Origin: Candidatus Limivicinus sp.
Lineage (GTDB): Bacteria > Bacillota > Clostridia > Oscillospirales > Oscillospiraceae
Reading direction: 5' to 3'
DNA length: 28,674 nt
Assembly (NCBI GenBank): GCA_045642585.1
Contig: JAZUJF010000235.1
Location: 1 to 28,674, forward strand
The translations under genes and the position numbers were made by a program. The notes below the pieces were generated by a model that was not told the DNA's origin, searched no databases, and was given only the letters and a program-made list of their open reading frames with translations. Position 1 is the stretch's first letter. The number at the start of each line of letters is the position of its first letter. Shown piece by piece: positions 11,750-28,143 of this stretch.

Positions 11750-11769
11750 GAATTAGGGATTTCAATAAT

Positions 11770-11934
11770 TAAGGAAACGCTGAATAATTCACTTTCGGCA
11801 TCTGCCGGAAAATTAGTGCTCTGATTTAGTCACTTTTTCTTGCAATACACAAAGTATTTCTGCAAAAAAGTGCCGTCATCAGAACCCGAATTATCTCGGC
11901 ATCTGCTCTCACCAAATTAATCAGCGTTTCCTTA
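11770..11934. mobile_element. 165-bp MITE-like palindromic element
   Basis: 20-bp terminal inverted repeats TAAGGAAACGCTGAATAATT / AATTAATCAGCGTTTCCTTA (19 of 20 matching). Internal palindrome CACTTTTT..TGCA..ATAC...GTAT..TGCA AAAAAGTG. No ORF; TA at both outer ends. Confidence 0.75.
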
Positions 11935-11938: not shown

Positions 11939-11974
11939 CAGACCCCCTGAGCCATTATCGGTTCAGGGGGTCTG
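11939..11974. terminator. Strong hairpin between the convergent MFS and DUF4867 genes (probable bidirectional terminator)
   Basis: 15-bp stem CAGACCCCCTGAGCC / GGTTCAGGGGGTCTG (one G.T pair) with a 6-nt loop. Confidence 0.75.
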
Positions 11975-11992: not shown

Positions 11993-12661
11993 TCAGTCTA
12001 TGGGATTGATCTTCCAGTTCTCGCCGTAGATGCCGGAGAAGGCACCTCTGGCAACGAGACCGGTATTCTGCTCATGGGCGATGAGCCACTTGTTCCTGGC
12101 CCAGAGCTTGTCCTTACGCTGATCTTCGGTCAGGGGCAGGTTAGTGCCGCGCTGAAGGCCGACAATGCAGGAGAAGCCGGTTTTCCTGCTCACTTCGCAG
12201 GGGCAGAAGTGGAGAGTGTCGGAATACACCTCGATCATCTCTCCCTGTGCGAGATAAAAAGCCCTGACCCTGGAGGAATCCAGTCTGCCGTCGGCATCAA
12301 TATCATCACGCTTTGCCAGAAGCAGAACCAGCTCACGCACGGCGATATTGAACTCGTTGCAGGTGTGCCACTCAAGAGCGTTGAGAGTATCGGAGTGACC
12401 CCAGCACAGGCCGATCTGCTCGTCAAGACCGCCGCAATACACCTCACGGATAACATCGGCCTCGGGCGATACATCGATAGCCTCCAGAGAGGGCACATAT
12501 TTGCTGCCCTCCGCGGGGAACTCGGCCGCGGCCTCGGTCTTCTCGCAGATGCTCTTTGTGTCAGCTGTGATCACCCTGCCGTAGCGTCTGAACTCGGGAT
12601 CATTTACGGAGCATATCTCTATCTGAGGATTGACCTTGCGCAGTTCTTCAAGCTTATCCAT
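11993..12661 (-). CDS. DUF4867 family protein (cupin-like)
   Basis: SV.DPEFRRYGRVI, Y.PS...., QIG.CWGH...LNALEWH...E.NIA..ELVLLLA, EVYSDTLHFCPC, F..IVGL.RGTN, LWARNKWLIAHE. Confidence 0.8.
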   Translation of the reverse strand: MDKLEELRKVNPQIEICSVNDPEFRRYGRVITADTKSICEKTEAAAEFPAEGSKYVPSLEAIDVSPEADVIREVYCGGLDEQIGLCWGHSDTLNALEWHTCNEFNIAVRELVLLLAKRDDIDADGRLDSSRVRAFYLAQGEMIEVYSDTLHFCPCEVSRKTGFSCIVGLQRGTNLPLTEDQRKDKLWARNKWLIAHEQNTGLVARGAFSGIYGENWKINPID

Positions 12662-13574
12662 TGCGAACCTCTCTTTTATTTGTCTTCATAAACTCAATTA
12701 CTTCATCATAATAGGGGATGCCGTGCTGTGCGCCGAAGCGGGTACACTTGAGTGCCGCAGTGGCGGAGGCAAAGCAGCAGGCGTCGTAATCGCTCATGCC
12801 CTTGACCTTGGCGGCCACGAATGCGCCGTGGAAGGTATCGCCGGAGCCGTTGGTATCAACAGCCTCCACCGGGAACACGGGGTAGCGGACTTCCCTGCCG
12901 TCCTCGTAGATAAAGCCGCCCCGGGAGCCCTGAGTGATAACGAGAGTCTCGGGATGATAGCGGTCGTATATGACCCTTGCCGCATCCAGCGCGTTGCCGC
13001 AGCCGGTGAGCTTCAGGGTGTATTCCTCGGAGGGGATGAGAACATCCACCCAGGGCAGCAGATCTTCAATGCCCTTATAGTTGCCGCCGGCATCATAGCT
13101 GACCTTAACGCCCAGCTCTCTTGCTTTTTTTGCCGCCATGATGGCAAAATCTATCTGATTGCCGTCCACATGGAGGAACTTTGCCTTTTTAAGAGACTCA
13201 AGATCAAGATCTCTCTCGGTGGGCATGGGAGCCGTACCCCGGTCAACGATGCAGGTGCGGCTGGCGTTCTCGGAGTTCACATACACAAGGGCGAAGAAGC
13301 TCCGCGCGTCCTCCACCTTGCGTACCCTGCTCACATCCACGCCGAAGCCGCGAAGCTCCGACAGCACAAATTCGCCGGAGGCATCCGCGCCGATGGTGCC
13401 CAGATGCTGGGTGGAAACACCCATCTTGGTCATAGCTACCAGTGCCGTTGCCTCGGGGCCGCCGCACTGGGTCTTCATTTCGTTTACGATTATTTTGGTG
13501 TCTTCAGGTGGAAATCCGTCGCCGATGACCATGACATCATACACCACCGCACCTATTCCAAGTACTTCTGCCAT
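12654..13574 (-). CDS. PfkB/ribokinase-family carbohydrate kinase (YihV-like subgroup)
   Basis: Start at the ATG at 13574 (AGGAG RBS). GGPEATALVA, LGTIGAD..G, ITQGSRG, DTNGSGDTFHGA, AALKCTRFGAQHGIP. Confidence 0.92.
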   Translation of the reverse strand: MAEVLGIGAVVYDVMVIGDGFPPEDTKIIVNEMKTQCGGPEATALVAMTKMGVSTQHLGTIGADASGEFVLSELRGFGVDVSRVRKVEDARSFFALVYVNSENASRTCIVDRGTAPMPTERDLDLESLKKAKFLHVDGNQIDFAIMAAKKARELGVKVSYDAGGNYKGIEDLLPWVDVLIPSEEYTLKLTGCGNALDAARVIYDRYHPETLVITQGSRGGFIYEDGREVRYPVFPVEAVDTNGSGDTFHGAFVAAKVKGMSDYDACCFASATAALKCTRFGAQHGIPYYDEVIEFMKTNKREVRNG

Positions 13575-13595
13575 ATGCACTTTCTCCTGATACAG

Positions 13596-13619
13596 GTATC
13601 GCCGCAATAGCGGCGATAC
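13596..13619. other. Intercistronic perfect hairpin between the aldolase and the kinase
   Basis: GTATCGCCGC-AATA-GCGGCGATAC, 10-bp stem, with no U-tract on the coding strand. Confidence 0.7.
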
Positions 13620-13632
13620 TGTTATTATAAAA

Positions 13633-14454
13633 TTACCTGTCGGAGCCCAGGAGCCTGATGCGGTTGACAGCAAACTCCTTGACTGCCTTGGTGGGCTCAC
13701 GCATGAACAGATCCAGCGCGATGATGCTGGGATCAACTGCGCGGCAGCCGTCCAGAAAGCTGCAGCAGACATCGGTGCCGATATTGATCTTGCGGATACC
13801 GGCCTTGATCGCCTTGGTGATCTGATCGTCGGGAACGCCGGAGCCGCCGTGGAGCACCAGATGTGCGTCTGTGGCCTCGTGAATTTCCGCGATGCGGTCG
13901 ATAGCCAGAACGGGAGCCTTCTTGTAGTGACCGTGAGCGGTACCCACAGCGATAGCCAGAGCGTCAACGCCGGTCCTGTTCACGAACTCCACAGCCTCGG
14001 AGACCTTGGTGTACTCGGGCATGGTATCGTCCTTGGTGGAACCCACATGGCCGATCTCACCCTCCACGAACACGCCGCACTCTTTGCAGAGCTCAACAAC
14101 ATTCTTAGTGTAGGCGATGTTGTCCTCAAAGCTCTCGGTGGAGCGGTCGATCATAATGGAGCTTGCGCCCCAGTGGAGAGCGCGCATGACCTCGGGCAGA
14201 CCTGCGCCGTGATCCAGATGGAACGCGCAGGGGGTCTTCAGGTCGTCCATAGCCTGCCTGATGATGGGAGCAACATACTTTGCAATGTCGGAGTCGAACA
14301 GACGGGAGTACATCTGGAAGATGACAGGGGAGCCGGTCTCCTCGGCTGCCTGCTTTACGCCCATGACGGTCTCAAGATTGTAAACATTGAACGCGGGGAC
14401 AGCAAAGCCGCCCTTATCGCCCAGGTCAAGAACTTCTTTCAGGTTGCAGATCAT
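13633..14454 (-). CDS. Class II (metal-dependent) ketose-phosphate aldolase, FBA/TBP family
   Basis: AVPAFN, HLDHG, SIMID, EGEIGHVG, AIAVGTAHG, LVLHGGSG, KINIGT. Confidence 0.93.
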   Translation of the reverse strand: MICNLKEVLDLGDKGGFAVPAFNVYNLETVMGVKQAAEETGSPVIFQMYSRLFDSDIAKYVAPIIRQAMDDLKTPCAFHLDHGAGLPEVMRALHWGASSIMIDRSTESFEDNIAYTKNVVELCKECGVFVEGEIGHVGSTKDDTMPEYTKVSEAVEFVNRTGVDALAIAVGTAHGHYKKAPVLAIDRIAEIHEATDAHLVLHGGSGVPDDQITKAIKAGIRKINIGTDVCCSFLDGCRAVDPSIIALDLFMREPTKAVKEFAVNRIRLLGSDR

Positions 14455-14476
14455 TATATTTTCTCCTTATACTGTA

Positions 14477-15865
14477 TTAGCAGGTCTCAAAGCTCAGTGC
14501 GGGTATGTACTTGCAGAATTCCTTTATCTCCTCGGTGTAGCTGCCCTCGATCTCGGACATATGGTGGATGTAGGGACCCTCAATGAGCTTGCGCTCCCAC
14601 TTGTCCAGATCGTCGAACTCCGCCCACAGATAGGTGCCGAAGGTATAGGGGCCTTCGCAGCTCTTGCACTCGCCGGCGAGAACGGAGTAGTTCCCGTGCT
14701 CCTGATCGATGCGGGCCACGGTGTAGTGGCCGTCCTGTACATGGAAGTATTCGCGCATATTGACCATCTTGCAGGGCTCGTCCTTCTTGCGGAGGCTGTT
14801 TGCGAAGGGGCCGCAGTGCCACAGCAGCTCGGAGTTGGGATTCTGGGGATTGCGTGCGGTGAACTCGCCCAGGAAGGGCTTCTTCTCGCCCAGTGCGAGA
14901 CTCTTGAGCATGACCTGAGTGAGAGTGGCGTGCATATCGCTCTCGCAGCCGATGATATAGCCCTGATCGGCCAGGATACCGTATGCGGAGCAGGGCATTG
15001 CGCCCACCAGAAGCTGCATGGCTGTCCAGCACTCGGCAGAGATCGCGGAGACATTGAATTCCTCAAAGAGCTCCTTGTACATCAGAACAAAGGCGTAGAC
15101 CTTCTCCAGCACAGGCTCGGAGAGAGCGTCGATCTCATAGATGGAGCGGAACTCCTCTGCACCGGCAGCCAGCTCCTCCTTGCGCTCGGCAAGGATCCTG
15201 TTGTATCTGTCGTTTACGACGGCAAGGTTAATGGGGATCACATGGATGTCAAACTTGTCCATCAGCTCGCCCTCGTTGAAGATGACGGAGTTGAAGGGCT
15301 TGGGACGCATACCAACCTGTGCCACACGCAGACCTGTGAAGTTCTTCACGGCGCAGGCAACGCGGACAAACCTATCGAAGCCCTTTGCCAGTCTCTCATC
15401 ATCCACAGCGCAGTTCTCAACATAGGTGAAGGGAACATTCATGCGCTGGAGCATACGGCTCATACCGAACAGACCGCACTGGGAGTCGGTGTAACGCATA
15501 CCGTCGGCATCAAAGCGGTCATCCACAGGCCCCCAGAGAAGGACCGGCTTGCCGATGGCCTTGGCAACGGCGCCCGCCACCTCTTCCTGACCGAAGTTTG
15601 CGTTAATGAGGAATACCGCGTCCACCTTCTCGGCCTTGAAGCGCTCAACGACCTTCTCAACATCGCTGTCGCAGTAGAGAGTGTCAACGGCGTTGATGCC
15701 CTTCAGGTCAACAAAGCTCACATGCTCGGATGCAAAATTCTTCTCGATGTACTCAACGCACTTCCTGCCGCGCTCTTCGGCGATCTCCCAGTTGAAAATA
15801 CCGGGACGGGGGGTGACATCTCTGCGGATGGGAACCAGACCGATCTTCACTTCATAACTAAGCAT
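14477..15865 (-). CDS. L-fucose/L-arabinose isomerase-like aldose-ketose isomerase
   Basis: 462 aa. NFGQE, YTDSQCG, SAECW, GCESDMH (metal-ligand E/D pattern), LWHCGPF, GPYIHH. Confidence 0.85.
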   Translation of the reverse strand: MLSYEVKIGLVPIRRDVTPRPGIFNWEIAEERGRKCVEYIEKNFASEHVSFVDLKGINAVDTLYCDSDVEKVVERFKAEKVDAVFLINANFGQEEVAGAVAKAIGKPVLLWGPVDDRFDADGMRYTDSQCGLFGMSRMLQRMNVPFTYVENCAVDDERLAKGFDRFVRVACAVKNFTGLRVAQVGMRPKPFNSVIFNEGELMDKFDIHVIPINLAVVNDRYNRILAERKEELAAGAEEFRSIYEIDALSEPVLEKVYAFVLMYKELFEEFNVSAISAECWTAMQLLVGAMPCSAYGILADQGYIIGCESDMHATLTQVMLKSLALGEKKPFLGEFTARNPQNPNSELLWHCGPFANSLRKKDEPCKMVNMREYFHVQDGHYTVARIDQEHGNYSVLAGECKSCEGPYTFGTYLWAEFDDLDKWERKLIEGPYIHHMSEIEGSYTEEIKEFCKYIPALSFETC

Positions 15866-15928
15866 GATTTTTTCTCCTTAAAGAAAGCATTTTATGAAAA
15901 CAGGGTTGCTGTTATTAACCGAATATAG

Positions 15929-15957
15929 ATTATAGCCCTCAAAAGGCCGAAATGCTA
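15929..15957 (-). promoter_or_regulatory. Probable activator-dependent promoter of the isomerase operon
   Basis: Perfect TATAAT at 15929-15934 (minus strand) with a poor -35 (TAGCAT) 17 bp upstream. Confidence 0.45.
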
Positions 15958-16024
15958 TTTACCTAACTTACGATAATAAGGCCGAAGTGAGGAGGAATAT
16001 ATGTTTTTCTGAAAACAGGGTTTT

Positions 16025-17800
16025 CTATTCCAGATCAATGTCCCACTCATCATCCCCTGAAGCGGGCTCGCTGTATGTGAAGGGAATAATGATTCTGGCA
16101 ACGGCGCCTCCCTCGGGGCGATTATCAATGGAGAAGGAGGCGTTGTCTCCGTACAGGAGCTTCAGACGCTCACGGACATTCTCAAGGCCGATGCCGCTGT
16201 GCTCCCGGCTGGGGGAGGTCTGGCCGGCGTTTATGCGCCGGAGCTGTTCACTTGACAGGCCGTAGCCGCTGTCCTTGACGGAGATCACAAGCTTGTCGTT
16301 CTCCTGATAGGCGTGGACAATAAGCTCGGACTGCTCGTTCTGCCCGCGTATACCGTGCTTCAGGGCGTTCTCCACGATGGGCTGTACGATCATGGTGGGA
16401 AGCATCGCGCTCTTTGCCGCCTCCCGGGCGCTGAAGGTCACATGGAGAGTGTCGCCGTATATGAGACGGTATATCTCCGTATAGTCCTCCAGAGCGTCGA
16501 ATTCCTGCTTCGTGGTGATATACTGGCAGGTGGTGTTGACGGTGATGTTCCTGAAATAGCGGCTGATGCGCTGAACTATCTCGGCCATCTGCTCATCGCC
16601 CTTGACCTTGGCCATGGAATTGAGGACCTCAAGGGCGTTATAGATGAAATGGGGTCTGATCTGAGTCTCCAGAGAGCGGTACTTGTATTCAAGGATCTGG
16701 AACTCGGCGTCCTTTTTTGCCAGCTCCTTTTCAAGCAGCTCGTCAAGCAGCTCGCTTATTCTCTGGGTCATGTAGTTGAAGGTGTAGGCGATGCGGCTGA
16801 TATCGTCGCTGCCCTTGATCTGAGCCCTGTAGCCGAAGTCACCCTGCGCCACCTTCTGCATGGAGACATTCAGAACATTGAGCTTTTTGTGCAGGGAGAT
16901 TATGGGGAACAGACCCATGACTATGCCCAGAATAAGACCCAGAATGCCGTACTGTACGCCGAGACGGACGATATTGCTACGGCTCTCGTTATATATCTCC
17001 TTTGAGGAATAGCCCACGGTCACCCATCCGCCGGTCTCATATTTTGAGAGGAAGTAATTGTCGGTGGACCGTGCCCCGGAGATGGAGGCATCCAGAACCT
17101 CGGAGAGGACCGGAATACCGTGGGAGCCGGCGTGGCATATGTAGTTATAGTCGGAGTCGCAGAAAACAAAGCCGGTGTTCTTATAGCTCTCACTGACGGA
17201 AAACAGTTCATCCTTGAAGTGAAAAACCGCCCGGCCCACATGGCGCAGGGGACTGATGTCGTACATATCGCAGATATAAAACAGGCCGCGGCCATCGATG
17301 TATTTCCACCTGACGGACACGTGCTCTTCCTCACTGTGCTCCGCAAGAAGCCGCTTTGCGGTCTCGGCTGTAGGCATGAGCTTTTCGTTTCCGCGCACGG
17401 CGCTGTAGCCGGCGTCTGCGGTGGTCTTGTCAAGGGTCTCTATTATCACATAGTCATAGTCGCTACCCTCGGTGATCATCTGAGCCAGAGCGTAGCGAAT
17501 GGAGAATGTGCTGACATTGTCGTTGGAATTGAACTGATTCATAAGCCTCGGGACATCAAGGGCCCGGAGTCTAGAATATGTGTTCGCGGTGCAGGATTCC
17601 TGATAGTTTGCGAAGTTAAGGGAGATCTGCTCGGTCAGCATATCCAGATTCTGATAGCTCGACTGCTCTACCATGGTGATGGAGGCAGTTACCTGCTCAT
17701 ATGTGACAAGACCTATGACGATAAACAGGGAGAACAGATACACCGTCAGCAGCTTCAGCGAAAACGGCGCACTGCGTATGCGTTTTATTATGCTTTCCAT
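16025..17800 (-). CDS. Sensor histidine kinase, YesM/LytS-type (two TM segments, extracellular domain, HAMP, His_kinase, HATPase)
   Basis: HAMP (DDISRIAYTFNYM), LETQIRPHFIYNALE, QPIVENALKHG, DSGYG, GIGLENVRERL. Confidence 0.95.
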   Translation of the reverse strand: MESIIKRIRSAPFSLKLLTVYLFSLFIVIGLVTYEQVTASITMVEQSSYQNLDMLTEQISLNFANYQESCTANTYSRLRALDVPRLMNQFNSNDNVSTFSIRYALAQMITEGSDYDYVIIETLDKTTADAGYSAVRGNEKLMPTAETAKRLLAEHSEEEHVSVRWKYIDGRGLFYICDMYDISPLRHVGRAVFHFKDELFSVSESYKNTGFVFCDSDYNYICHAGSHGIPVLSEVLDASISGARSTDNYFLSKYETGGWVTVGYSSKEIYNESRSNIVRLGVQYGILGLILGIVMGLFPIISLHKKLNVLNVSMQKVAQGDFGYRAQIKGSDDISRIAYTFNYMTQRISELLDELLEKELAKKDAEFQILEYKYRSLETQIRPHFIYNALEVLNSMAKVKGDEQMAEIVQRISRYFRNITVNTTCQYITTKQEFDALEDYTEIYRLIYGDTLHVTFSAREAAKSAMLPTMIVQPIVENALKHGIRGQNEQSELIVHAYQENDKLVISVKDSGYGLSSEQLRRINAGQTSPSREHSGIGLENVRERLKLLYGDNASFSIDNRPEGGAVARIIIPFTYSEPASGDDEWDIDLE

Positions 17801-17829
17801 GGGTCTGACCTCTGCTGTCCCGGGGCGTA

Positions 17830-19335
17830 TCAGCCCTCGTGCTTATTGAGCCTGTACTCGGTGGGGCTCATCTTCTCGCTCTTTTTGAATATGTTGTAGA
17901 AGCTTATATAGTTCTCATAGCCTATGGCGTAGGCTATATCCTCAACACGCATTCTGGTGTCGTCAAGCATCTGCTTTGCAACGATCATTTTGGCGTTTAT
18001 GACATGCTGACGGTAGGTGATGCCCGTCTCTTTCTTTATGAGCATGGAGAGATAGTTGGGGCTCACGAAGAACTTCGCGGCCACATCCTCCAGCACAAGA
18101 CCGTCGGTGATGTGGGTGTTTATGTGTTCGAGAACATTTCCCACAAGGCTTGTGGATTGGGGAACGTTTATGCTGCGTATCTCATCAAAGAAGAGGAACA
18201 GCCATTGCTTTGCCCCCTCCACGCTCTGGAGCTTGGGCAGCTCGTACACCGTCATATCCGTGGAGTCGCCCCAGCAGGAGTGATTCATCTTGCTGCGGGT
18301 GACCTTGGTGCAGATGAACATGAGCATGACCTTGATCATCCTGATCTTGCCGTCGCTCTTCTCCATAATGGTGTCCCAGACTTCCTCCGGCTCCATTGTG
18401 TCGATGTTGGCGGCCAGCTTGCTGCACAGCTGCTCTATGTCCACAAGATGGGTGCGCTTGGCCGTACCCAGCTCAGAGGAGTCGAAGAAATCCACCTGAC
18501 TGTGCTTGCCGTAAATATTGTGCTGGAGCTGGGTGTGCATACTCTCCTCGTATGCCTTGCGAAGCTCCGAGATATCATAGTGATGGTCGCTGATGGAAAG
18601 AGTCACGTTCAGCATATTGTCAAGCAGGATGGTAGCCACCCTGCGGGCCTCAGAATGCCACTGCTCCAGGGGCTCCTTAAAGGCGCACAGCAGCACCAGA
18701 TCGCCCTCCACAACGGCAGAGATGACCTCTGCCCCGGCGGGAAAGGCGGCGTAGTCAAGCCTCTGGAGAGAGGGGCCGTTTATTACACCCTGCGTGCCCT
18801 GCACCAGTACTACGAAAAATTCGGCGGGGATGTCCTTCATAAAGGACAGAAAGTCCACCTGCTCGCCGCCGGCTGCGGGGGCATTGAGGGCGGCAATGAA
18901 ACGGGCTCTTCTGGCAACGGATTCAACGGTCTTTATATGGGCGCTCTCGCTTCGCTCATTGTCCAGCGACTCCACCGCACGCTTGAGAGAGGCGCACAGC
19001 TCGTTGTTGTCCACAGGCTTGAGTATGAAGTCAAAGGCCGAGAGCCTGATGGCGCGGGTGGCGTATTCTATCTTCTCATAGGCGGTGATGAAGATGACGC
19101 GGGAGCCGGACAGTTCATCGCCCAGCTGCTCTATCATGTTCAGACCGTCGAGCTCCGGCATATGGATATCGGACAGAATAATATCGGGCGCAAGCTCACG
19201 GATCATGAGGCTTCCCTGCTTGCCGTCGTATGCACAGCCCACAAGCTCCAGATCAAGATCATCCCAGGGGATGGTCTTTTTCAGCGCCTCAATGGCCATT
19301 CTGTTGTCGTCGATCAGTAAGGTTTTGTACTTCAC
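17830..19335 (-). CDS. Response regulator, YesN-type (REC plus AraC HTH)
   Basis: GTG start. LLIDD, SDIHMP, ITAY, FILKP. C-terminal VSPNYLSMLIKKETG and IAYAIGYEN..SF...FKK....SP.EYR. Confidence 0.95.
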   Translation of the reverse strand: MKYKTLLIDDNRMAIEALKKTIPWDDLDLELVGCAYDGKQGSLMIRELAPDIILSDIHMPELDGLNMIEQLGDELSGSRVIFITAYEKIEYATRAIRLSAFDFILKPVDNNELCASLKRAVESLDNERSESAHIKTVESVARRARFIAALNAPAAGGEQVDFLSFMKDIPAEFFVVLVQGTQGVINGPSLQRLDYAAFPAGAEVISAVVEGDLVLLCAFKEPLEQWHSEARRVATILLDNMLNVTLSISDHHYDISELRKAYEESMHTQLQHNIYGKHSQVDFFDSSELGTAKRTHLVDIEQLCSKLAANIDTMEPEEVWDTIMEKSDGKIRMIKVMLMFICTKVTRSKMNHSCWGDSTDMTVYELPKLQSVEGAKQWLFLFFDEIRSINVPQSTSLVGNVLEHINTHITDGLVLEDVAAKFFVSPNYLSMLIKKETGITYRQHVINAKMIVAKQMLDDTRMRVEDIAYAIGYENYISFYNIFKKSEKMSPTEYRLNKHEG

Positions 19336-19403: not shown

Positions 19404-20603
19404 TCAGTGCAGATCATCCTCGTGAATGACGACGCCGTTTTCTCTCAATCTGCTCTGAAGGGCGGAGACATCCAGAGCGGGAAAATCATCGGTCATGGCA
19501 GCGGCTATACCTGCCGCCTCGCCTGTCACGGCGCAGCATGGGATGACCCGCATGATGTCCCACATTGCGTCGGTGACGGAGGTATTGCGCCCGGCACAGA
19601 TGAGGTTTCTGCATTTGCCCGAATACAGAGTCCTGAAGGGCACCTCATACACAGGCCCGCGCTTTCTCCAGTCGGACACCATGCCGATGGAATCCTCAAA
19701 GCGGGTGTGCATCATCCGGGCGGAAAGATCAAATTCTCCCACGAGCTTTCTTGTCATTCTCAGCTGCGGAACGGTGGGAATAGTGACGGGCTGGAAGCTC
19801 CGGTCGGTCCTCTGACGCTTTTTCACATCGTTAAGGGTGGAGGCATGGGAATCTATGACAAACTGAGAGATCTCATCGGCATCAACGCCCTGATACCGCC
19901 TGTCCGAAAGCTTCTCCACCGTATCCCCCAGGATGGCCTTGTCCTCATCCGGAATGTCGGAGAAGCCGAGCTTGTTGAGATCATAGCCCTCATTTCCCAG
20001 GAAATAATACCATGAGGCCAGAATGTTGCCCTGCCCGAAAAGAGCCGTGGGGACGGCTGAAAATACTGCCAGATCGCAGTCACCGGTGGCGTCCACGAAG
20101 GACAGAGCCTCAATGGCCTGTCGGCCGCTTTTGCTCTCGATGATAACATGGCTTATCCTGTCGCCCTCCATTGCGCAGGCGGCGGCAGATGTGCCGTACA
20201 TTATCTCCACGCCCTCTTTCAGCAGAAGCTGTTCGGAGAGAATTGCCATGAGCTGGGGGTTATAGTTCATTTCAAAGCGGGTATCCTTCTCCGTCATCTT
20301 TCCGCCATCGAGCCACGCGGCACCGCGCTTGCCGTCATTATACATACTCACAGACAGCCGCAGAAGCTCCTCTGCGATTCCGAAGCTGACCTGAGTGCCG
20401 TAACCGTCGCATAGAGGGAGATAGATGGCGATAAGCCCGGCTGTGGCAAGACCGCCCAGCATGAAGCCCTTTTCCAGAAGAATAACCTTTTTGCCCTGTC
20501 TCGCCCCGGCAAGTGCCGCCGAGATACCGGCAATACCTCCCCCGCATACCAGTACATCGCAGCTCTTTACAACGGGAGTGGAGAGATTTTCGGTAATAGT
20601 CAT
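19404..20603 (-). CDS. FAD-dependent oxidoreductase (FAD_oxidored / PF12831-like)
   Basis: Start at the ATG at 20603. DVLVCGGGIAGISAA, LGGLATAG, FVDATGDCD, YEVPFRTL, NLICAGR, RVIPCC.VTGEAAG.AAA. Confidence 0.88.
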   Translation of the reverse strand: MTITENLSTPVVKSCDVLVCGGGIAGISAALAGARQGKKVILLEKGFMLGGLATAGLIAIYLPLCDGYGTQVSFGIAEELLRLSVSMYNDGKRGAAWLDGGKMTEKDTRFEMNYNPQLMAILSEQLLLKEGVEIMYGTSAAACAMEGDRISHVIIESKSGRQAIEALSFVDATGDCDLAVFSAVPTALFGQGNILASWYYFLGNEGYDLNKLGFSDIPDEDKAILGDTVEKLSDRRYQGVDADEISQFVIDSHASTLNDVKKRQRTDRSFQPVTIPTVPQLRMTRKLVGEFDLSARMMHTRFEDSIGMVSDWRKRGPVYEVPFRTLYSGKCRNLICAGRNTSVTDAMWDIMRVIPCCAVTGEAAGIAAAMTDDFPALDVSALQSRLRENGVVIHEDDLH

Positions 20604-20618
20604 GTCAGATGTCCTCTC

Positions 20619-20727
20619 TAAGTAAGCGATGATTAATTCACCGAGAGCAGATGGCGAGAAAATTCCCATGCGCCATCCGCTTCCATTTATCGTGGCGCAC
20701 ATTTTGCGCATTTGCGCATGGGGATTT
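20619..20727. repeat. Composite repeat: one arm of the 11.8-kb MITE fused to the 62-bp palindrome (copy 1)
   Basis: 20619-20665 matches the reverse complement of 11888-11934 at 38 of 47 nt. 20659-20727 matches 23743-23804 with a small TTTGCGCA-type duplication. Confidence 0.85.
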
Positions 20728-20732
20728 AAAAA

Positions 20733-21839
20733 TTAAAGCTCTGCCCATCTGTCCTCCGCCGCAGACAGGAGGCAGGCGGCAATAAATCTGTTGCCCATTA
20801 CGCCGTCTCTGAAGGTGGCATAGGGCACCTTGCCTGTTTTGTAGGAGCCGTCGGCGATAGAGGCGTAGAATGCCTTTACGGCGTTGAGCTGGCCGTCGGC
20901 CCAGCCCATGTTGTGGCCGGCGGGGGTGAGGATATAAGGAACAGTGCGCCCGTCAACGAACGCCTTGTCCATGAACACAGTCTCGTTTCCGCGCTCACGG
21001 CTGCCCACAAAGAGCCGGTCGCATTGCTCCTCCTCGAAGCGCAGCTCGCAGTTCTCGCCGCTGACGACCACCTGCAGGTCGTTTTTGTGACCCAGCATGA
21101 CCTTGGAGAAGATGGCGCTGCCGGGTGTGCCGTCGGCAAATTCCACCATGACGGCGGTGGTGTCGTCGGAATGTATCTCTATCCGGCTTCCGGTCTCCGG
21201 ATCAATACGGACAGGGTAGTGGGTGTACATTCTGGCGTACACCCTTTTAATGGGCATACCCACGGCGCAGACGGCGGCGTCTGCCCAGTGGACACCGATA
21301 TCCAGAAGAGCTCTGGCAGGGTTATCCTCCGGCATACGGCGTTTGGTGTAATCGGTATGCCGGGCGGCACTGTCCTGAATATACCTGCCGGACACATAGA
21401 GGAGCCTGCCCGCTTTGCCGCTTTCGATGCGGTTTCGCATCTCCTGAAAGGCGGCATTCATCCTGTAGGAATGGTTGACAGCGTTTGCAATGCCGGCCTT
21501 TTCTGCGGCAAGACACACTTTTTCCGCGCCCTCTGCCGTCTGGCTCAGGGGCTTTTCGGCGTAGATATGCTTGCCGGCGGCGATGGCATAGAGATTGACC
21601 TCGTCGTGGAGCCGGTTGGGGGTGCAGTTGTGGATAACGCTGATTTCAGGGTCGTCAACCACCTTTTTCCAGTCCGATGAGATGTAATCCACATCGTACT
21701 GTGAGGCGGCGGAGCCAACATCGGAGCCGGGGCTGAGGGCGATGGCTCTGATGTGGACATTGCCCAGACGCCTGAGACTGTCATAATGGAGCTTTCCGAT
21801 AAAGCCCATGCCGATTATTCCCACATTGATCTTTTCCAT
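20733..21839 (-). CDS. Gfo/Idh/MocA family NAD(P)-dependent oxidoreductase
   Basis: GIIGMGFIGKLH, NCTPNRLH, GKHIYAEKP, NHSYR, LDIGVHWAD, SDD. Confidence 0.93.
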   Translation of the reverse strand: MEKINVGIIGMGFIGKLHYDSLRRLGNVHIRAIALSPGSDVGSAASQYDVDYISSDWKKVVDDPEISVIHNCTPNRLHDEVNLYAIAAGKHIYAEKPLSQTAEGAEKVCLAAEKAGIANAVNHSYRMNAAFQEMRNRIESGKAGRLLYVSGRYIQDSAARHTDYTKRRMPEDNPARALLDIGVHWADAAVCAVGMPIKRVYARMYTHYPVRIDPETGSRIEIHSDDTTAVMVEFADGTPGSAIFSKVMLGHKNDLQVVVSGENCELRFEEEQCDRLFVGSRERGNETVFMDKAFVDGRTVPYILTPAGHNMGWADGQLNAVKAFYASIADGSYKTGKVPYATFRDGVMGNRFIAACLLSAAEDRWAEL

Positions 21840-21864: not shown

Positions 21865-22740
21865 TCATATTTTTCTCAGGAGGGCGTCCAGCACATCTCC
21901 GCAGTCCGCTATCAGCGAATAGTCGCTGTAATCATGGATAGGGGCGGAGGGGTCGATGTTCACGGCGGCAATAGTCCCGGCACCAAGAATACCGCTGAGA
22001 TGCTGGACAGCGCCGGATATGCCGAAGGCCACATAGAGCCTGGGCTGAACGCTCACACCGGTCTGCCCCACCTGCGAGCTGTAATCGGCATAGCCCGCGG
22101 CGACAGCCGCTCTGGAGGCACCCGCTCCGGCACCGATGCGCCGGGCCAGCTCCCGAAGCTTTCGGAAATTCTCTTTTCCTCCCATACCCAGACCTCCGGA
22201 GAGGATTATCTCCGAGCTCTGGAGGGACTTCTGCTCCTCTGTATGGGACAGATAGCCCAGAAGCTCAATGGGACTCAGACTCTCGCCCACATCCAGCTCC
22301 TCGACCGATATACCCTCAAGCCCGGTGGAGGCTCTGCCGAAGCAGCCCACGCGGACGGTGGCAATATAGGGCTTATCCATGCTGCGGTTGACGGCGATCT
22401 TCCTGCCGCCGAAGGTGGGGCGGATCTGCAGCAGACCGAAACGCCCGTCCCACTCCAGAGATGTGCAGTCGGCCGTAATGCCTCTCCCGATGGAGAAGGC
22501 GAAGGCCGGAGCCACCTCCGAGAAAAATCTGTCACATTCAAATATAATCGCATCCGGTCGGCGGAGGAGCCACTGCTTTTTCAGCGCCTCCACTGCGGCA
22601 TCCACCCAGAGGGGGCCGCTTTTTCGGACCAGAATTATTTTCAGGCTTAATCCTTTTTGCTCTGCCAGCTGACGGCATTTCTCCGCCAGAGCGGCGGAGG
22701 ACTCGGTAACGGCACCGGTGATGACCCAAAACTCGTTCAC
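21865..22740 (-). CDS. etfA: Electron transfer flavoprotein alpha subunit
   Basis: GITADCT, RPTFGG, ILSGGLGMG, GASRAAV, QVGQTG, GISGAVQHLSG, VNIDP.API. Confidence 0.93.
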   Translation of the reverse strand: MNEFWVITGAVTESSAALAEKCRQLAEQKGLSLKIILVRKSGPLWVDAAVEALKKQWLLRRPDAIIFECDRFFSEVAPAFAFSIGRGITADCTSLEWDGRFGLLQIRPTFGGRKIAVNRSMDKPYIATVRVGCFGRASTGLEGISVEELDVGESLSPIELLGYLSHTEEQKSLQSSEIILSGGLGMGGKENFRKLRELARRIGAGAGASRAAVAAGYADYSSQVGQTGVSVQPRLYVAFGISGAVQHLSGILGAGTIAAVNIDPSAPIHDYSDYSLIADCGDVLDALLRKI

Positions 22741-23486
22741 AGCAGTCCCACCAGCCCTTCCGTTCCGCGGGCAATGTCAGTCTCCCTGACACCGTGCCTG
22801 TGGGCAAAGCTCAGTTCATTGACCGATACGGTCTCTGTACCCGATTTCGCGGCGGGGACAGTATCGGAGGAAACCACCCGTATCCCGGCGTTTTTCGCCC
22901 TGCGAAGGCCGAATATGGTGGGTACGCGCACCATAGATGTACCGTTTATAACCGTGAGCAGAGCGGGATAGGGACAGCGGTATTCTGCCGTCCCGTCTGC
23001 CTGAGCCCGCAGAGCTCTGACAGCGCCGTCATCGGCAGAGAATGACAGCACATTTCCGATACAGGGAATACCGAGAGCCTGACCCAGCTGAGGACCTATG
23101 TGGCCGGTCTCGGAGTCAATGGCCTTTTTTCCGCAGAGAATGAGATCAGTATGGCCCAGAGTGCGTATTGCCCCGGCAAGGACTGCGGCGCTGGCGACGG
23201 TGTCCGACCCTGCATAGGCACGGTCCGACACATGGACGGCCTCATCCGCACCCATGGCAAGAGCGGTGCGCAGGATCTGTTCGCCCTGCTTCGGCGCCAT
23301 GGTGATGACGGTTATGTGAGTCCCGGGGGCTTTGTCTTTGATTCTAAGGGCCAGCTCCAGAGCGTAGGCGTCCGCAGGGTTCAGCTCCAGCTGACCGCCG
23401 GAGAGCCTGTCGGAGGATGCGCTTTCCGGAAACAGATCCGAATATGTGGAGCGGGAGACCATTTTCAGACAGACAATGATGTTCAT
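22737..23486 (-). CDS. etfB: Electron transfer flavoprotein beta subunit
   Basis: MNIIVCLK, NPADAYALE.AL, ITMAP, ALAMGAD, DRAYAGSDT, GKKAIDSETGHIGP. Confidence 0.93.
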   Translation of the reverse strand: MNIIVCLKMVSRSTYSDLFPESASSDRLSGGQLELNPADAYALELALRIKDKAPGTHITVITMAPKQGEQILRTALAMGADEAVHVSDRAYAGSDTVASAAVLAGAIRTLGHTDLILCGKKAIDSETGHIGPQLGQALGIPCIGNVLSFSADDGAVRALRAQADGTAEYRCPYPALLTVINGTSMVRVPTIFGLRRAKNAGIRVVSSDTVPAAKSGTETVSVNELSFAHRHGVRETDIARGTEGLVGLL

Positions 23487-23654
23487 TCAGCAATTCCTTT
23501 TCGGAGGGCACAAAACTGATCGGTATCAATACTATACCATAAATGCCGCATAACGGAAGTAAACAAATGAGGAAATTTGCTCTTTCACTATATTATGCGG
23601 CATTTTTGCTGTCACAGCCCCGCATGATCACGAAGCTGTGACAGCATATGTAGT

Positions 23655-23694
23655 TTTTACTGTGAAAGCTCTGCTTCCACAGTAAAGATTATAA
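23655..23694. repeat. 40-bp palindromic repeat, copy 2
   Basis: TTTTACTGTGAAAGCTCTGCTTCCACAGTAAAGATTATAA; 39 of 40 identical to the reverse complement of 5163-5202. Confidence 0.9.
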
Positions 23695-23742
23695 TAATCG
23701 CCCGTTTCTCGCCCCTGACGGGGCAACCAAAACGGATGCGAA

Positions 23743-23804
23743 AAAATTCCCATGCGCCATCCGCTTTCATTTATCGTGGCGCACATTTTGCGCATGGGAA
23801 TTTT
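23743..23804. repeat. 62-bp REP/MITE-like palindrome, copy 2
   Basis: Perfect 15-bp terminal inverted repeats AAAATTCCCATGCGC / GCGCATGGGAATTTT. The internal core is shared with 20659-20727. Confidence 0.88.
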
Positions 23805-23805
23805 A

Positions 23806-24897
23806 TCAGCAGTTTTCGTCGAGAAGCCTGAACAGGTCGATGATCTTAATATCGGAGGCATATTTGCCCATGATGTAGCTGTCATCGGCAGAGCAGGTGA
23901 TAATGGCAGGAGAGCCGATACGGCGGGCATCGTCGCAGCGGACCTCGACCATGCGTCTGGAGACGACGGCATCGAAGCATTCCATAAGAGGAGTGCTGAC
24001 GCAGCGGGACATCTTGCCGTGGAGGAACAGGGGGATGTAGTTCACGCCCAGAGCCTTGACTATCGCCATAACGGGCTCCTCTTCCTCCAGACCGCGGGTG
24101 AGCTTCACAGGCTCCTGAACGGAGGCGGTGAGGTCAACGGTCTTTGCCTTAAGCGCACCGTTTGCCAGGAGCTCTCCCACGAATGCGGTGGCGGTGGTCA
24201 TCTCTACGCCCTCAAGAAGCTTCCATTCGCTGAACTTCTCGCGGAACATGACCGCATCATAGGGAGCCAGAGCCACGACCTTTTTGGCACCGGTGGCGGC
24301 GACTGCCTCGGCGGCCTTGGCGGCAACAGCCTGCACATCGCCTGTGAAGCCCATGAGGTCACCGAGGAATGCGCCGGTGGGCTTCTCGTCTGCAAGAGCG
24401 GTGAAGCTGACGCCTGCCTTTCTGAGAAGGCTGATGACTGCCAGAGCGGTATCGGCACCGAAGGTGCGGCCGGTCTGACCGATGTAGAGGAGAGTGTCGG
24501 CCTTTGCGGGGAGCTTTTTGAGCTCCTCTGCCAGAGAAGCGTTTACATCCACGCCGTAGATGTTGCCCTTCTGCATGATATTGTCGATCTCGGTCATGAC
24601 AGCCGCGGGGGCGATGTCATTGACCACAGCGTGCATTCTTGCTTCGCGGGTGAAATCAGTGGGCCTCCAGCCGGTGACGCAGTCATTGGCACAGGCGTCG
24701 CACATGGTGCAGTGATACATCGCGTCGGCGACCTCCGCATCGTACTCGGTGCCGCGCTCGATCATGGACACCATGATGCCTCTTGCGCGGGGACCCCAGC
24801 CTTCGGAGCCGGTGGCACCTGCGACGGGGCAGATGTGACGGCACATCCAGCAGAAACGGCACATATCGGCCTGCTTAGAGTTGGCAGCAGAAAACAT
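23806..24897 (-). CDS. Fe-S binding protein, GlpC/GlcF/HdrD-like (2x[4Fe-4S] ferredoxin domain plus degenerate CCG domains)
   Basis: CRFCWMCRHICP and CTMCDACANDC motifs, P..R. The downstream fold is typical of CCG domains but lacks their cysteines. Confidence 0.85.
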   Translation of the reverse strand: MFSAANSKQADMCRFCWMCRHICPVAGATGSEGWGPRARGIMVSMIERGTEYDAEVADAMYHCTMCDACANDCVTGWRPTDFTREARMHAVVNDIAPAAVMTEIDNIMQKGNIYGVDVNASLAEELKKLPAKADTLLYIGQTGRTFGADTALAVISLLRKAGVSFTALADEKPTGAFLGDLMGFTGDVQAVAAKAAEAVAATGAKKVVALAPYDAVMFREKFSEWKLLEGVEMTTATAFVGELLANGALKAKTVDLTASVQEPVKLTRGLEEEEPVMAIVKALGVNYIPLFLHGKMSRCVSTPLMECFDAVVSRRMVEVRCDDARRIGSPAIITCSADDSYIMGKYASDIKIIDLFRLLDENC

Positions 24898-24918
24898 AGT
24901 CTTTTACCTCCTTATTGA

Positions 24919-26466: not shown

Positions 26467-26495
26467 TTGAATTTTTTATGTACGGATGGTATAAT
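26467..26495 (+). promoter_or_regulatory. Sigma-A-type promoter of the kinase-iolB operon (divergent)
   Basis: TTGAAT-17 bp-TATAAT with an extended -10 TG. Confidence 0.75.
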
Positions 26496-26541
26496 GGTAT
26501 TTGCATCAGGATCATTGTGCGGTAATACCGCGGAGGTTTTT

Positions 26542-28053: not shown

Positions 28054-28143
28054 CGGAACAGGGCGATTTTTACACAGACACTTGTTTTTCCCGGTACTAT
28101 CCTTTAAAATAAACCCAGAATTTATATTTACGGAGGTATTATC

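What the first reader, a model, noticed from the sequence alone, without database searches (positions are those of the whole stretch)
11993..15865. Candidate hybrid sulfoglycolysis-like (sulfo-EMP) operon: fucose-isomerase-like enzyme, class II aldolase, YihV-like PfkB kinase and DUF4867
Seen: four tightly linked genes, with the kinase and DUF4867 overlapping by 8 bp. Together they supply isomerise, phosphorylate and cleave chemistry. The kinase carries GGPxATAxVA, DxFHGA and AALKCTRxG..GIP, matching the subgroup of E. coli sulfofructose kinase YihV, and lacks the IolC-type N-terminus. Established knowledge (recalled, please verify): DUF4867 (SftX/SqvB) and a fucose-isomerase-like SQ isomerase (SftI/SqvD) mark Firmicute sulfo-transaldolase clusters. 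The sulfo-EMP2 route uses SqvD, a PfkA-type kinase (SqiK) and a class II aldolase (SqiA), while the classical sulfo-EMP uses YihV with a class I aldolase. Inference: an SqvD-type isomerase plus YihV-type kinase plus class II aldolase would be a mixed-and-matched variant for sulfoquinovose or another C6-modified hexose in a gut or rumen anaerobe. Caveat: no GH31 sulfoquinovosidase, sulfolactaldehyde reductase/dehydrogenase or TauE-type exporter is visible in the window.
Basis: partly seen in the sequence, partly recalled or inferred. Interest (0 to 1): 0.8.

Follow-up and report, generated by a model that had tools for sequence, protein, structure and literature searches.

The report
Orphan sugar-splitting operon, not sulfoquinovose
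These four genes are a real operon that isomerises, phosphorylates and splits a still unidentified sugar in uncultured gut and rumen Clostridia, but the tests that define sulfoquinovose enzymes and clusters fail, so it is not the proposed hybrid sulfoglycolysis route.

Summary
Four co-directional minus-strand genes encode an AraA/FucI-fold isomerase, a class II aldolase, a PfkB kinase and a DUF4867 cupin, and the last two overlap by 8 bp. The sulfoquinovose reading fails its tests:
- The kinase lacks two of the three residues of YihV's sulfonate triad.
- The isomerase scores 106 bits on the SftI model (cut-off 700) and is 22% identical to a genuine clostridial SQ isomerase.
- The DUF4867 does not group with SQ-context copies.
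- No GH31 sulfoquinovosidase was found in this MAG or in 43 other genomes that carry the cluster.
- Hybrid sulfo-EMP clusters are already published.

The isomerase-aldolase core recurs in 47 other loci of gut, rumen and hindgut Clostridia, in three architectures. The window has the same gene set as locus L016: a two-component system, IolB, an FGGY kinase and an ETF-linked flavoenzyme related to E. coli YgcU.

Best reading: an EMP-like upper module (aldose to 2-ketose to ketose-1-phosphate to DHAP plus a non-phosphorylated C3 aldehyde) for an unknown sugar that has no 6-phosphate.

This scan had already flagged the same operon family on other genomes. Interest is moderate.

The parts
14477..15865 (-). 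AraA/FucI-superfamily aldose-ketose isomerase, 462 aa, first gene of the operon
   Evidence: NCBIfam SftI 105.6 bits (cut-off 700) and AraA weak. AlphaFold pLDDT 92.9; Foldseek best matches are L-arabinose isomerases at TM 0.82-0.84. 57-75% identical across 47 related loci. E308, E334, H350, H434 and H435 are invariant; their correspondence to the AraA catalytic and Mn residues is my inference.
13633..14454 (-). Class II (metal-dependent) ketose-phosphate aldolase without the distal-phosphate arginine
   Evidence: PF01116 288 bits. The motifs that align with the catalytic Asp, the metal-binding His residues and the substrate- and 1-phosphate-binding residues of YaSqiA (HLDHG, TAHG, LHGGSG, N-x-G/A-T-D) are conserved in 43 orthologues. 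The Arg of the D-P-R motif is a conserved Asp.
12654..13574 (-). PfkB-family sugar kinase, 306 aa
   Evidence: PF00294 152 bits. Best solved relative is E. coli YihV at 113 bits, with ribokinase at 102. 30-31% identical to YihV; D13 and D244 are kept; the sulfonate triad reads K-V-N. RBS AGGAGA lies 9 nt upstream of the start.
11993..12661 (-). DUF4867 cupin metalloprotein, overlaps the kinase gene by 8 bp
   Evidence: PF16161 222 bits. 137 bits to SqvB (PDB 9GYY), with all four metal ligands (2 Glu, 2 His) aligned. It falls in a starred clade of window-type copies.
15866..16024 (-). 159-nt intergenic region upstream of the isomerase, with a promoter-like site and an RBS
   Evidence: TTAATA-18-TAAAAT at 15918-15889, a TATAAT further upstream, and AAGGAG before the ATG. 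These are consensus matches only.
13595..13620 (-). 11-bp palindromic hairpin between the aldolase and kinase genes
   Evidence: role unknown
11939..11974 (.). 12-bp G+C-rich hairpin after the DUF4867 stop, between the convergent operon and the MFS gene
   Evidence: Read directly from the sequence.
16025..19335 (-). YesM-like histidine kinase (16025-17800) and YesN-like response regulator with an AraC output domain (17830-19335), directly upstream
   Evidence: Pfam. The same pair precedes the isomerase in most window-type loci.
19404..21839 (-). FAD-dependent oxidoreductase (PF12831) and a Gfo/Idh/MocA dehydrogenase
   Evidence: Best solved relatives of the dehydrogenase are scyllo-inositol/L-glucose dehydrogenase and levoglucosan dehydrogenase; none of the best 60 is named a sulfoquinovosidase. 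Both genes also occur in locus L016.
21865..26340 (-). EtfA, EtfB, an Fe-S protein and a GlcD/AGPS-like flavoenzyme
   Evidence: Pfam. The flavoenzyme is 32% identical to E. coli YgcU. An orthologue of 53-76% identity is present in 32 of the 43 other isomerase-bearing genomes. In architecture C these genes are interleaved with the four core genes.
26467..28674 (+). FGGY kinase (26467-28053) and IolB-type cupin isomerase (28144 onwards, cut by the contig end)
   Evidence: XylB model 332 bits (cut-off 380). The full-length IolB orthologue in L003 scores 213.5 against a cut-off of 205.

Best explanation
The four genes are the upper half of a conserved, uncharacterised sugar-catabolic regulon of uncultured gut, rumen and hindgut Clostridia.

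Proposed mechanism, all steps inferred from the enzyme families and none assayed:
1. The AraA-like isomerase turns an aldose into its 2-ketose. The DUF4867 cupin probably helps by handling ring or anomer forms of the ketose.
2. The PfkB kinase phosphorylates the ketose at C1.
3. The class II aldolase cleaves the ketose-1-phosphate to DHAP plus a three-carbon aldehyde that is not glyceraldehyde-3-phosphate.
4. That aldehyde is passed to the neighbouring module (IolB-type isomerase, FGGY kinase, YgcU-like flavoenzyme with Fe-S protein and ETF).

Expression is probably controlled by the YesM/YesN-type two-component pair directly upstream.

The substrate is unknown. It carries no 6-phosphate and is very unlikely to be sulfoquinovose. 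My odds within this explanation:
- neutral, perhaps galacto-configured, hexose giving glyceraldehyde: about 40%
- hexuronate giving tartronate semialdehyde: about 25%
- 6-deoxyhexose: about 10%
- 6-O-sulfated hexose: about 10%
- other: about 15%
For: - Families, spacing and translational coupling point to one operon.
- The isomerase model is confident and AraA-like, with invariant E308, E334, H350 and H434/H435.
- The aldolase keeps the motifs that align with YaSqiA's catalytic Asp, metal-binding His residues and substrate-binding residues. The Arg that binds the 6-phosphate in FBP/TBP aldolases is a conserved Asp, as expected for a ketose monophosphate enzyme. SqiA and YdjI also lack this Arg.
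- The kinase keeps the sugar-binding D13 and the catalytic D244.
- The isomerase (57-75% identity) and aldolase (55-71%, bar a few divergent or second copies) stay together in 47 other loci, in three architectures.
- In architecture C the four genes are interleaved with the flavoenzyme, Fe-S, IolB, mutarotase, FGGY and ETF genes in one operon. In L016 the whole gene set of this window is co-directional behind an ABC transporter.
- The flavoenzyme orthologue is present in 32 of the 43 other cluster-bearing genomes.
- Architecture B adds an aldehyde dehydrogenase, a glycerate-2-kinase-like protein and an enolase paralogue, which fits a C3 aldehyde product.
- Small perfect-match contigs of the isomerase and aldolase genes occur in a horse-gut RNA library. 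This is weak evidence of transcription.
Against: - No enzyme of this family has been assayed and the substrate is not identified.
- The kinase's regiochemistry (C1 or C6) is inferred only from what the aldolase needs.
- The kinase is poorly conserved between architectures (about 31% identity in B, about 45% in C), so the phosphorylation step may differ between them.
- A conserved Ser/Thr-Arg in the loop that binds the sulfonate in SqiA, and the fact that most relatives of these enzymes act on acid sugars (YihV, IolC, YdjI, SqiA, IolB, GlcD), keep an anionic substrate quite possible.
- The role of DUF4867 is unknown even in the characterised SQ pathways (PMC11968277).
- The window itself has no transporter clearly tied to the operon, and the contig ends inside IolB.
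Confidence: 0.6

Rival explanations
1. One reading: a hybrid sulfo-EMP pathway. An SqvD-type isomerase, a YihV-type sulfofructose kinase, an SqiA-type aldolase and an SftX-type protein convert sulfoquinovose to DHAP plus sulfolactaldehyde.
For: - The best solved relatives are sulfoglycolytic enzymes, though by small margins: YihV 113 bits against ribokinase 102; HpSqiA 182 against a Bacillus-type FBA 174.
- The only solved DUF4867 is SqvB.
- The only clear NCBIfam match of the isomerase is SftI.
- The aldolase lacks the distal-phosphate Arg, as SqiA does.
- Sister clusters of architecture B carry a GabD-like aldehyde dehydrogenase and an Ldh_2 protein whose top model, by about 1.5 bits, is sulfolactate dehydrogenase.
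Against: - The KRN sulfonate triad is not met: N109 is V and R138 is N here, and R138 is never Arg in 42 cluster kinases.
- The isomerase scores 105.6 bits against a cut-off of 700. It is 22% identical to the SftI-like enzyme of a genuine GH31 + transaldolase + transketolase cluster, which itself scores 372 bits.
- SQ-context DUF4867 proteins do not group with it.
- No SQase-like GH31 was found in this MAG or in 43 other cluster-bearing genomes. The best matches there were 113 bits or less at 35% identity or less, while the control genome has three copies, two of them at about 640 bits.
- No SLA reductase and no sulfonate exporter sit in any recurrent neighbourhood.
- The adjacent MFS gene shows no similarity to YihO or YihP.
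- Most DUF4867 plus fucose-isomerase pairs are non-sulfo.
Confidence: 0.06
2. An inositol-type lower pathway: IolB makes the keto-acid sugar, which the PfkB kinase (IolC-like) and the class II aldolase (IolJ-like) turn into DHAP plus an acid semialdehyde. The AraA-like isomerase and DUF4867 would serve a separate entry branch.
For: - The IolB orthologue passes the curated cut-off (213.5 against 205).
- In architecture C the aldolase, kinase and IolB genes are adjacent.
- A Gfo/Idh/MocA dehydrogenase related to scyllo-inositol dehydrogenase is in the window.
- Earlier first readers of this scan read sister loci in the same way.
Against: - The kinase scores 101 bits on the IolC model (cut-off 300).
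- IolD, IolE and IolA are not in any of the loci.
- Architecture B has the isomerase, kinase and aldolase but no IolB in the locus.
- The isomerase and aldolase, not IolB, form the invariant core.
Confidence: 0.12
3. A tagatose/GalNAc-type bisphosphate route: the kinase phosphorylates a ketose-6-phosphate and the aldolase cleaves a ketose-1,6-bisphosphate, as in the Aga/Gat pathways.
For: - A NagA that passes its cut-off and NagB/AgaI-like genes flank the cluster in about 11 of 48 loci.
- The aldolase scores about equally on the GatY, tagatose-bisphosphate aldolase and FBA models.
Against: - The 6-phosphate-binding Arg of AgaY and FBA is a conserved Asp.
- No PTS and no hexose 6-kinase is in the clusters; uptake is by an ABC transporter.
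- The kinase scores only 43 bits on the hexose-kinase (1-PFK/LacC) subfamily model, cut-off 216.
Confidence: 0.07

Closest known systems
Sulfo-EMP2 and hybrid sulfo-EMP1/2 clusters (SqvD/SftI, SqiK or YihV, SqiA, SqvB/SftX; PMC10665668, PMC11968277)
   Same: The Pfam-level parts list matches: fucose/arabinose-isomerase superfamily, PfkB kinase as in sulfo-EMP1 and the hybrids, PF01116 aldolase without the distal-phosphate Arg, and DUF4867. The reaction logic is also the same (isomerise, 1-phosphorylate, retro-aldol).
   Different: The sulfonate triad of YihV is absent. The isomerase is only 22% identical to SftI-like enzymes. There is no sulfoquinovosidase, no SLA reductase and no exporter. 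The DUF4867 lies outside the SQ-context copies. The cluster is linked instead to IolB, an FGGY kinase and an ETF-dependent flavoenzyme.
myo-Inositol lower pathway IolB-IolC-IolJ (Bacillus subtilis)
   Same: A cupin isomerase that passes the IolB model, a PfkB kinase and a PF01116 aldolase acting on a monophosphate lie side by side in sister loci. The product would be DHAP plus a non-phosphorylated C3 aldehyde.
   Different: The kinase fails the IolC model. IolG, IolE, IolD and IolA are missing. An extra AraA-like isomerase and DUF4867 form the conserved core.
E. coli ydj cluster (YdjH PfkB ketose kinase plus YdjI class II ketose-1-phosphate aldolase)
   Same: A PfkB kinase is paired with a PF01116 aldolase that lacks the D-P-R motif and cleaves a ketose-1-phosphate (YdjI 156 bits, YdjH 63 bits).
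   Different: The ydj cluster has no isomerase of this family and no DUF4867. Its dehydrogenases and proposed substrate (an octuluronate, recalled from the literature) are different.
E. coli ygc cluster (YgcU, YgcQ/R, YgcE), function unknown
   Same: The neighbouring module of the window has the same make-up: an AGPS/GlcD-like flavoenzyme (32% identical to YgcU), ETF subunits and an FGGY kinase.
   Different: The ygc cluster has no AraA-like isomerase, class II aldolase, PfkB kinase, DUF4867 or IolB. Identities of the ETF and kinase proteins are only 23-24%.
L-arabinose/D-galactose isomerase AraA and the L-fucose pathway FucI-FucK-FucA
   Same: The fold is shared (TM 0.82-0.84 to AraA, about 0.75 to FucI), as is the scheme aldose to ketose to ketose-1-phosphate to DHAP plus aldehyde.
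   Different: Sequence identity is 12-17%. The kinase is PfkB rather than FGGY, and the aldolase is PF01116 rather than FucA-type.

Membership tests
YihV-type sulfofructose kinase | [quoted passage not shown] | tested here: not met
   In the alignment to E. coli YihV, K27 is K, N109 is V and R138 is N. In 42 cluster kinases position 138 is N/L/M/F/H/Y/A/V and position 109 is S/W/V/F.
YihV-type sulfofructose kinase | PfkB fold with the catalytic Asp of the GXGD motif and the sugar-binding Asp13 | tested here: met
   D13 and D244 are invariant in all 42 kinases. PF00294 scores 152 bits. This feature is shared by the whole ribokinase family.
SftI/SqvD sulfoquinovose isomerase (NCBIfam NF048012, equivalog) | Score above the curated cut-off of 700 bits | tested here: not met
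   105.6 bits. Clostridial SftI-like proteins score 372-426 bits and are 22% identical to the window protein.
Class II SFP aldolase SqiA | Loss of the partner-subunit Arg that binds the 6-phosphate in FBP aldolases (Ala257 in YaSqiA) | tested here: met
   The Arg is absent and replaced by a conserved Asp. YdjI lacks it too, so this is not specific to SqiA.
Class II SFP aldolase SqiA | Location in a sulfo-EMP gene grouping (the criterion used to curate the family in PMC10665668) | tested here: not met
   No SQase, SLA reductase or exporter is in the window or in the 47 related loci.
DUF4867 (PF16161) cupin metalloproteins | Pfam gathering score and the 2His-2Glu metal site seen in SqvB | tested here: met
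   221.7 bits against a cut-off of 28.7. Glu, His, Glu and His align with SqvB E97, H99, E103 and H150.
SftX/SqvB subgroup of DUF4867 (the sulfoglycolytic SSN cluster) | Groups with DUF4867 proteins from SQ gene clusters | tested here: not met
   In the tree the window protein sits in a starred clade of window-type copies. The two SQ- or transketolase-context proteins are long separate branches with no supported link to it. Only two such references were available.
Sulfoglycolysis gene cluster (system level) | A sulfoquinovosidase (GH31 YihQ/SftG, or GH188 SqgA) in the cluster or genome | tested here: not met
   With a clostridial SQase as query there was no match in G000 (69% complete). The 43 other carrier genomes gave only generic GH31 matches of 113 bits or less. 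The control genome has three copies. GH188 could not be tested by sequence. The window's Gfo/Idh/MocA protein matches inositol, L-glucose and levoglucosan dehydrogenases.
Inositol lower pathway (IolB/IolC/IolJ) | IolB and IolC above their curated cut-offs | tested here: inconclusive
   IolB is met in the full-length orthologue (213.5 against 205); the window copy is cut by the contig end. IolC is not met (101 against 300).

The most novel reading that the evidence does not exclude
The conserved isomerase-aldolase core handles a hexose with an anionic C6 group other than phosphate: sulfonate, sulfate ester or carboxylate. The resulting 3-substituted C3 aldehyde would then be consumed by enzymes with no precedent in sugar catabolism. 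In this window that would be the IolB-type isomerase, the FGGY kinase and the AGPS/YgcU-like flavoenzyme with ETF. In sister clusters it would be an aldehyde dehydrogenase, a divergent glycerate-2-kinase-like enzyme and an enolase paralogue. That paralogue keeps the proton-abstracting Lys and the metal ligands but has lost the residues that canonical enolase uses to expel the 3-hydroxyl. Such a paralogue could eliminate a better leaving group, sulfite or sulfate, to give PEP. This would amount to complete, exporter-free use of a sulfo- or sulfated sugar by gut Firmicutes.
Probability: 0.12. Interest if true: 0.85.

Novelty: new variant of a known kind. Interest (0 to 1): 0.5.

Why it matters
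The isomerase family is abundant. A search of 8000 candidates gave 3040 significant relatives, with single 90% clusters of up to 1679 member sequences. All 45 genome loci lie in MAGs or otherwise uncultured genomes from human, ruminant, deer and horse gut samples.

A well-conserved pathway in so many gut Clostridia with no known substrate is a gap in our picture of which dietary or host carbohydrates these organisms use. It also holds two protein families of unknown role (DUF4867 and the YgcU-like flavoenzyme), one of which is shared with an unexplained E. coli gene cluster.

Showing that this is not sulfoglycolysis also matters in practice. Surveys that count 'DUF4867 + fucose-isomerase + PF01116 + PfkB' as sulfoquinovose degraders would wrongly count these common bacteria.

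Tried and rejected
1. Adjacent MFS gene (10271-11749) as a YihO/YihP-like sulfonate carrier: BLAST found no similarity, and the gene is present in only 2 of 48 loci.
2. Gfo/Idh/MocA protein as an NAD-dependent sulfoquinovosidase: its best solved relatives are inositol/L-glucose, levoglucosan and C-glycoside 3-dehydrogenases. No GH188 reference sequence was available, so this stays untested by direct comparison.
3. Reading the substrate from the ABC binding protein of sister loci: only weak, generic matches to maltose, chito-oligosaccharide and xylo-oligosaccharide binders.
4. Literature search for the ygc genes: nothing relevant was returned.
5. RNA evidence for co-transcription: only contigs were available, with scattered short matches. 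This shows presence, not operon structure.
6. Authentic SftX from the SQ-positive control genome G203: it has no DUF4867 at all.
7. G040 locus L055 as a sulfo-EMP2 reference: it shares only the isomerase with the SQ cluster, so it was not used.
8. My first greedy ORF caller picked antisense frames. It was replaced by a conservation-guided caller.
9. A PfkB family tree with E. coli paralogues was not built. The residue test was judged more direct.

Full report
**1. What is in the window**

All four genes lie on the minus strand.
- Isomerase: 14477-15865, 462 aa.
- Class II aldolase: 13633-14454, 273 aa, PF01116 at 288 bits.
- PfkB kinase: PF00294 at 152 bits.
- DUF4867 protein: 11993-12661, 222 aa, PF16161 at 222 bits.

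The long TTG-initiated reading frame of the kinase is not the gene. Orthologues and an AGGAGA 9 nt upstream place the start at the ATG at 13574, so the gene is 12654-13574 and the protein has 306 aa.

The gaps are 22 nt and 58 nt, and the kinase and DUF4867 genes overlap by 8 bp.
- A promoter-like site and a good ribosome-binding site precede the isomerase.
- A 12-bp hairpin follows the DUF4867 stop.
- An 11-bp palindrome lies between the aldolase and the kinase.

**2. The isomerase**

It has no Pfam match and no sequence match in the PDB. It matches the NCBIfam SftI model at E 2.4e-30, but with 105.6 bits against a cut-off of 700.

An AlphaFold model built on 30 homologues has pLDDT 92.9. Its best structural matches are L-arabinose isomerases (TM 0.82-0.84), followed by D-arabinose and L-fucose isomerases (about 0.75). 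E308, E334, H350 and H434/H435 are invariant in the family. I take these to be the catalytic and Mn residues by analogy with AraA; this is inference.

'Fucose-isomerase-like' is therefore right at superfamily level. The protein is built more like AraA.

**3. Tests of the sulfoquinovose reading**

*Kinase.* E. coli YihV is the best solved relative, but only narrowly: 113 bits against 102 for ribokinase, at 30-31% identity. [quoted passage not shown] In the window kinase these positions read K, N and V. Across 42 kinases of related clusters, position 138 is never Arg and position 109 is never Asn.

*Isomerase.* I looked for real SftI-type enzymes in 300 genomes of the same class. The best two score 426 and 372 bits. 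The 372-bit one lies in a genuine SQ cluster with a GH31 enzyme, two transaldolase-family genes, split transketolase genes, an iron alcohol dehydrogenase and a TctA transporter (L056). The window isomerase is 22% identical to both.

*DUF4867.*
- The JBC 2025 study of this family (PMC11968277) found only 127 sequences in the sulfoglycolytic network cluster.
- Its two largest clusters (557 and 298 sequences) mostly sit beside fucose-isomerase-family and FGGY-kinase genes in non-sulfo contexts. The pair is therefore not a sulfo marker.
- My own sample agrees. Of 15 DUF4867 loci drawn from 401 genomes of the phylum, 8 have an FGGY kinase plus a divergent isomerase and one more has the FGGY kinase only. 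One is an operon of the present family, one lies beside a YihQ-like GH31 and one beside transketolase halves.
- In the tree the window protein falls in a starred clade of window-type copies. The two SQ-type references are long isolated branches.
- The four metal ligands of SqvB are conserved, so the protein is probably an active cupin metalloprotein.

*Aldolase.*
- The SFP aldolases HpSqiA and YaSqiA are among the best solved relatives (182 and 171 bits). A Bacillus-type FBA (174), AgaY (168) and YdjI (156) are close behind.
- The Arg of the D-P-R motif, which binds the 6-phosphate from the partner subunit in FBP aldolases and is Ala257 in SqiA, is Asp here. It is Asp in all 43 orthologues.
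- YdjI lacks the motif too. The feature says 'not a bisphosphate aldolase' rather than 'SFP aldolase'.

*System level.* I used the clostridial SQase of L056 as query against this MAG and 43 other genomes that carry the cluster.
- Only generic GH31 matches appeared: 113 bits or less, 35% identity or less.
- The control genome has three copies, two of them at about 640 bits.
- This MAG is only 69% complete, so absence from it alone would mean little. The consistent absence across 43 other genomes carries more weight.
- No SLA reductase or sulfonate exporter recurs in the neighbourhoods.
- The adjacent MFS gene is unrelated to YihO/YihP.

*Novelty of the idea.* Mosaic sulfo-EMP1/2 clusters, including a PfkB kinase with a class II aldolase, are already published for Proteobacteria and Actinobacteria (PMC10665668).

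**4. What it is instead**

The isomerase family is large and tightly conserved. I analysed 47 other loci with a conservation-guided gene caller and family clustering. Counting the window, that makes 48 loci. They fall into three architectures, with three loci left unclassified.

- **A (11 loci, including the window):** ABC transporter, response regulator, histidine kinase, then isomerase-aldolase-kinase-DUF4867. The flavoenzyme, Fe-S, ETF, IolB and FGGY genes often follow, and Gfo/Idh/MocA plus ThuA, or NagA plus NagB-like genes, often precede.
- **B (26 loci):** Ldh_2, KDPG-type aldolase, SDR, aldo-keto reductase, glycerate-2-kinase-like protein, enolase paralogue, aldehyde dehydrogenase, then kinase-isomerase-aldolase-DUF4867 and an amidohydrolase.
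- **C (8 loci):** isomerase, flavoenzyme, Fe-S, aldolase, kinase, IolB, mutarotase, DUF4867, FGGY and ETF in a single operon.

Other points:
- Locus L016 has exactly the gene content of this window in one co-directional array of 20 genes. The flagged four genes are therefore one part of a regulon that spans at least 11993-28674 here and is cut by the contig end.
- The isomerase (57-75% identity) and the aldolase (55-71%, apart from a few divergent or second copies in B loci) are the invariant core. The kinase is much less conserved (about 60% in A, 45% in C, 31% in B), and DUF4867 is intermediate.
- An orthologue of the flavoenzyme (53-76% identity) is present in 32 of the 43 other carrier genomes, in architecture B on other contigs.
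- The flavoenzyme is 32% identical to E. coli YgcU.
- Earlier follow-ups of this scan reached the same view of sister loci: a conserved orphan operon with an ETF-linked flavoenzyme, closest to the E. coli ygc cluster.

**5. Mechanism**

*Shown:* the enzyme families, the conserved catalytic residues, the operon structure and the co-occurrence.

*Inferred:* aldose to 2-ketose (isomerase, with DUF4867 acting on ring or anomer forms as the JBC authors suggest), then 1-phosphorylation (PfkB kinase), then retro-aldol cleavage to DHAP plus a C3 aldehyde that carries no phosphate.

The fate of the C3 product is the main open question.
- Architecture B points to aldehyde, then acid, then 2-phospho acid.
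- Its enolase paralogue is an extra copy, 36-38% identical to the housekeeping enolase of the same genome. It keeps K345 and the metal ligands D246, E295 and D320 (yeast-enolase numbering, assigned from motifs recalled from the literature). It has replaced H159, E168, usually E211, H373 and R374, and has Arg in place of K396.
- The C3 acid is therefore probably not ordinary D-glycerate.

Several features keep an anionic or otherwise modified C6 group possible:
- the conserved Ser/Thr-Arg in the aldolase loop that binds the sulfonate in SqiA;
- the acid-sugar bias of the related enzyme families;
- the NagA/NagB-like neighbours;
- a PL8 lyase in one locus.

Against that stand the conserved Asp at the aldolase's former phosphate-binding position and the missing Arg in the kinase. 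I therefore give odds rather than a substrate name.

**6. Verdict**

This is another member of an operon family that this scan has met before on other genomes. It is a new variant of the familiar isomerase-kinase-aldolase kind. The substrate is unknown and several component families are unexplained.

Noticed in passing
L023:4585-8795 (and 22 other architecture-B loci): Beside the same isomerase-aldolase core lie an aldehyde dehydrogenase, a very divergent glycerate-2-kinase-like protein (87 bits against a cut-off of 550) and an extra enolase paralogue, 36-38% identical to the housekeeping enolase of the same genome. The paralogue keeps K345 and the metal ligands but has lost H159, E168, usually E211, H373 and R374. 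It looks like an enolase-family enzyme with a new function.
   Followed up: partly
window 11770-11934: The palindromic MITE-like element has a word depth of 144-550 in four gut runs, against about 0-17 for its flanks. One DNA contig (run X1) joins 11749 to 11934 without it, with 34 other letters in its place. This fits a multi-copy mobile insertion.
   Followed up: partly
window 20619-20734: A DNA contig in run X1 skips 116 bases here (joint 20618 to 20735, with 5 other letters between). The repeat in front of the FAD-oxidoreductase gene is therefore also present or absent between strains.
   Followed up: no
L001:239-877 (contig C250 of the same MAG): A second DUF4867 paralogue, 37% identical to the window copy. 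In the tree it groups with the copies from non-sulfo FGGY/isomerase contexts. It lies beside a convergent 447-aa ORF with no Pfam match, on a 2.4-kb contig.
   Followed up: partly
L005:513-1694 and 14181-15032; about 11 of 48 loci: A NagA that passes the curated GlcNAc-6-phosphate deacetylase cut-off (242 against 226 bits), and one or two divergent NagB/AgaI-like proteins (93 bits against 237), flank clusters of both architectures A and B. This hints at an amino-sugar entry into the same pathway.
   Followed up: partly
L023:15239-17821: A chondroitinase-AC/hyaluronate-lyase-like (PL8) gene follows one architecture-B cluster. GH2 and DHDPS-family genes follow the cluster in L040, L041 and L046. 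These are possible links to uronate-containing glycans. The PL8 gene was seen in one locus only.
   Followed up: no
L056:3708-14424 (genome G203): A genuine clostridial sulfoquinovose cluster carries both transaldolase-family genes and split transketolase genes, next to the GH31 enzyme and the SftI-like isomerase. It has no DUF4867 anywhere in the genome, and two further SQase paralogues lie on another contig.
   Followed up: no
window 13595-13620: A perfect 11-bp palindromic hairpin sits in the 58-nt gap between the aldolase stop and the kinase RBS. It may be an internal attenuator or an RNA processing or stability site.
   Followed up: no
window 1808-3103: Within a compact shikimate-pathway operon (163-4412), one ORF fuses a shikimate dehydrogenase N-terminal domain to shikimate kinase.
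   Followed up: no
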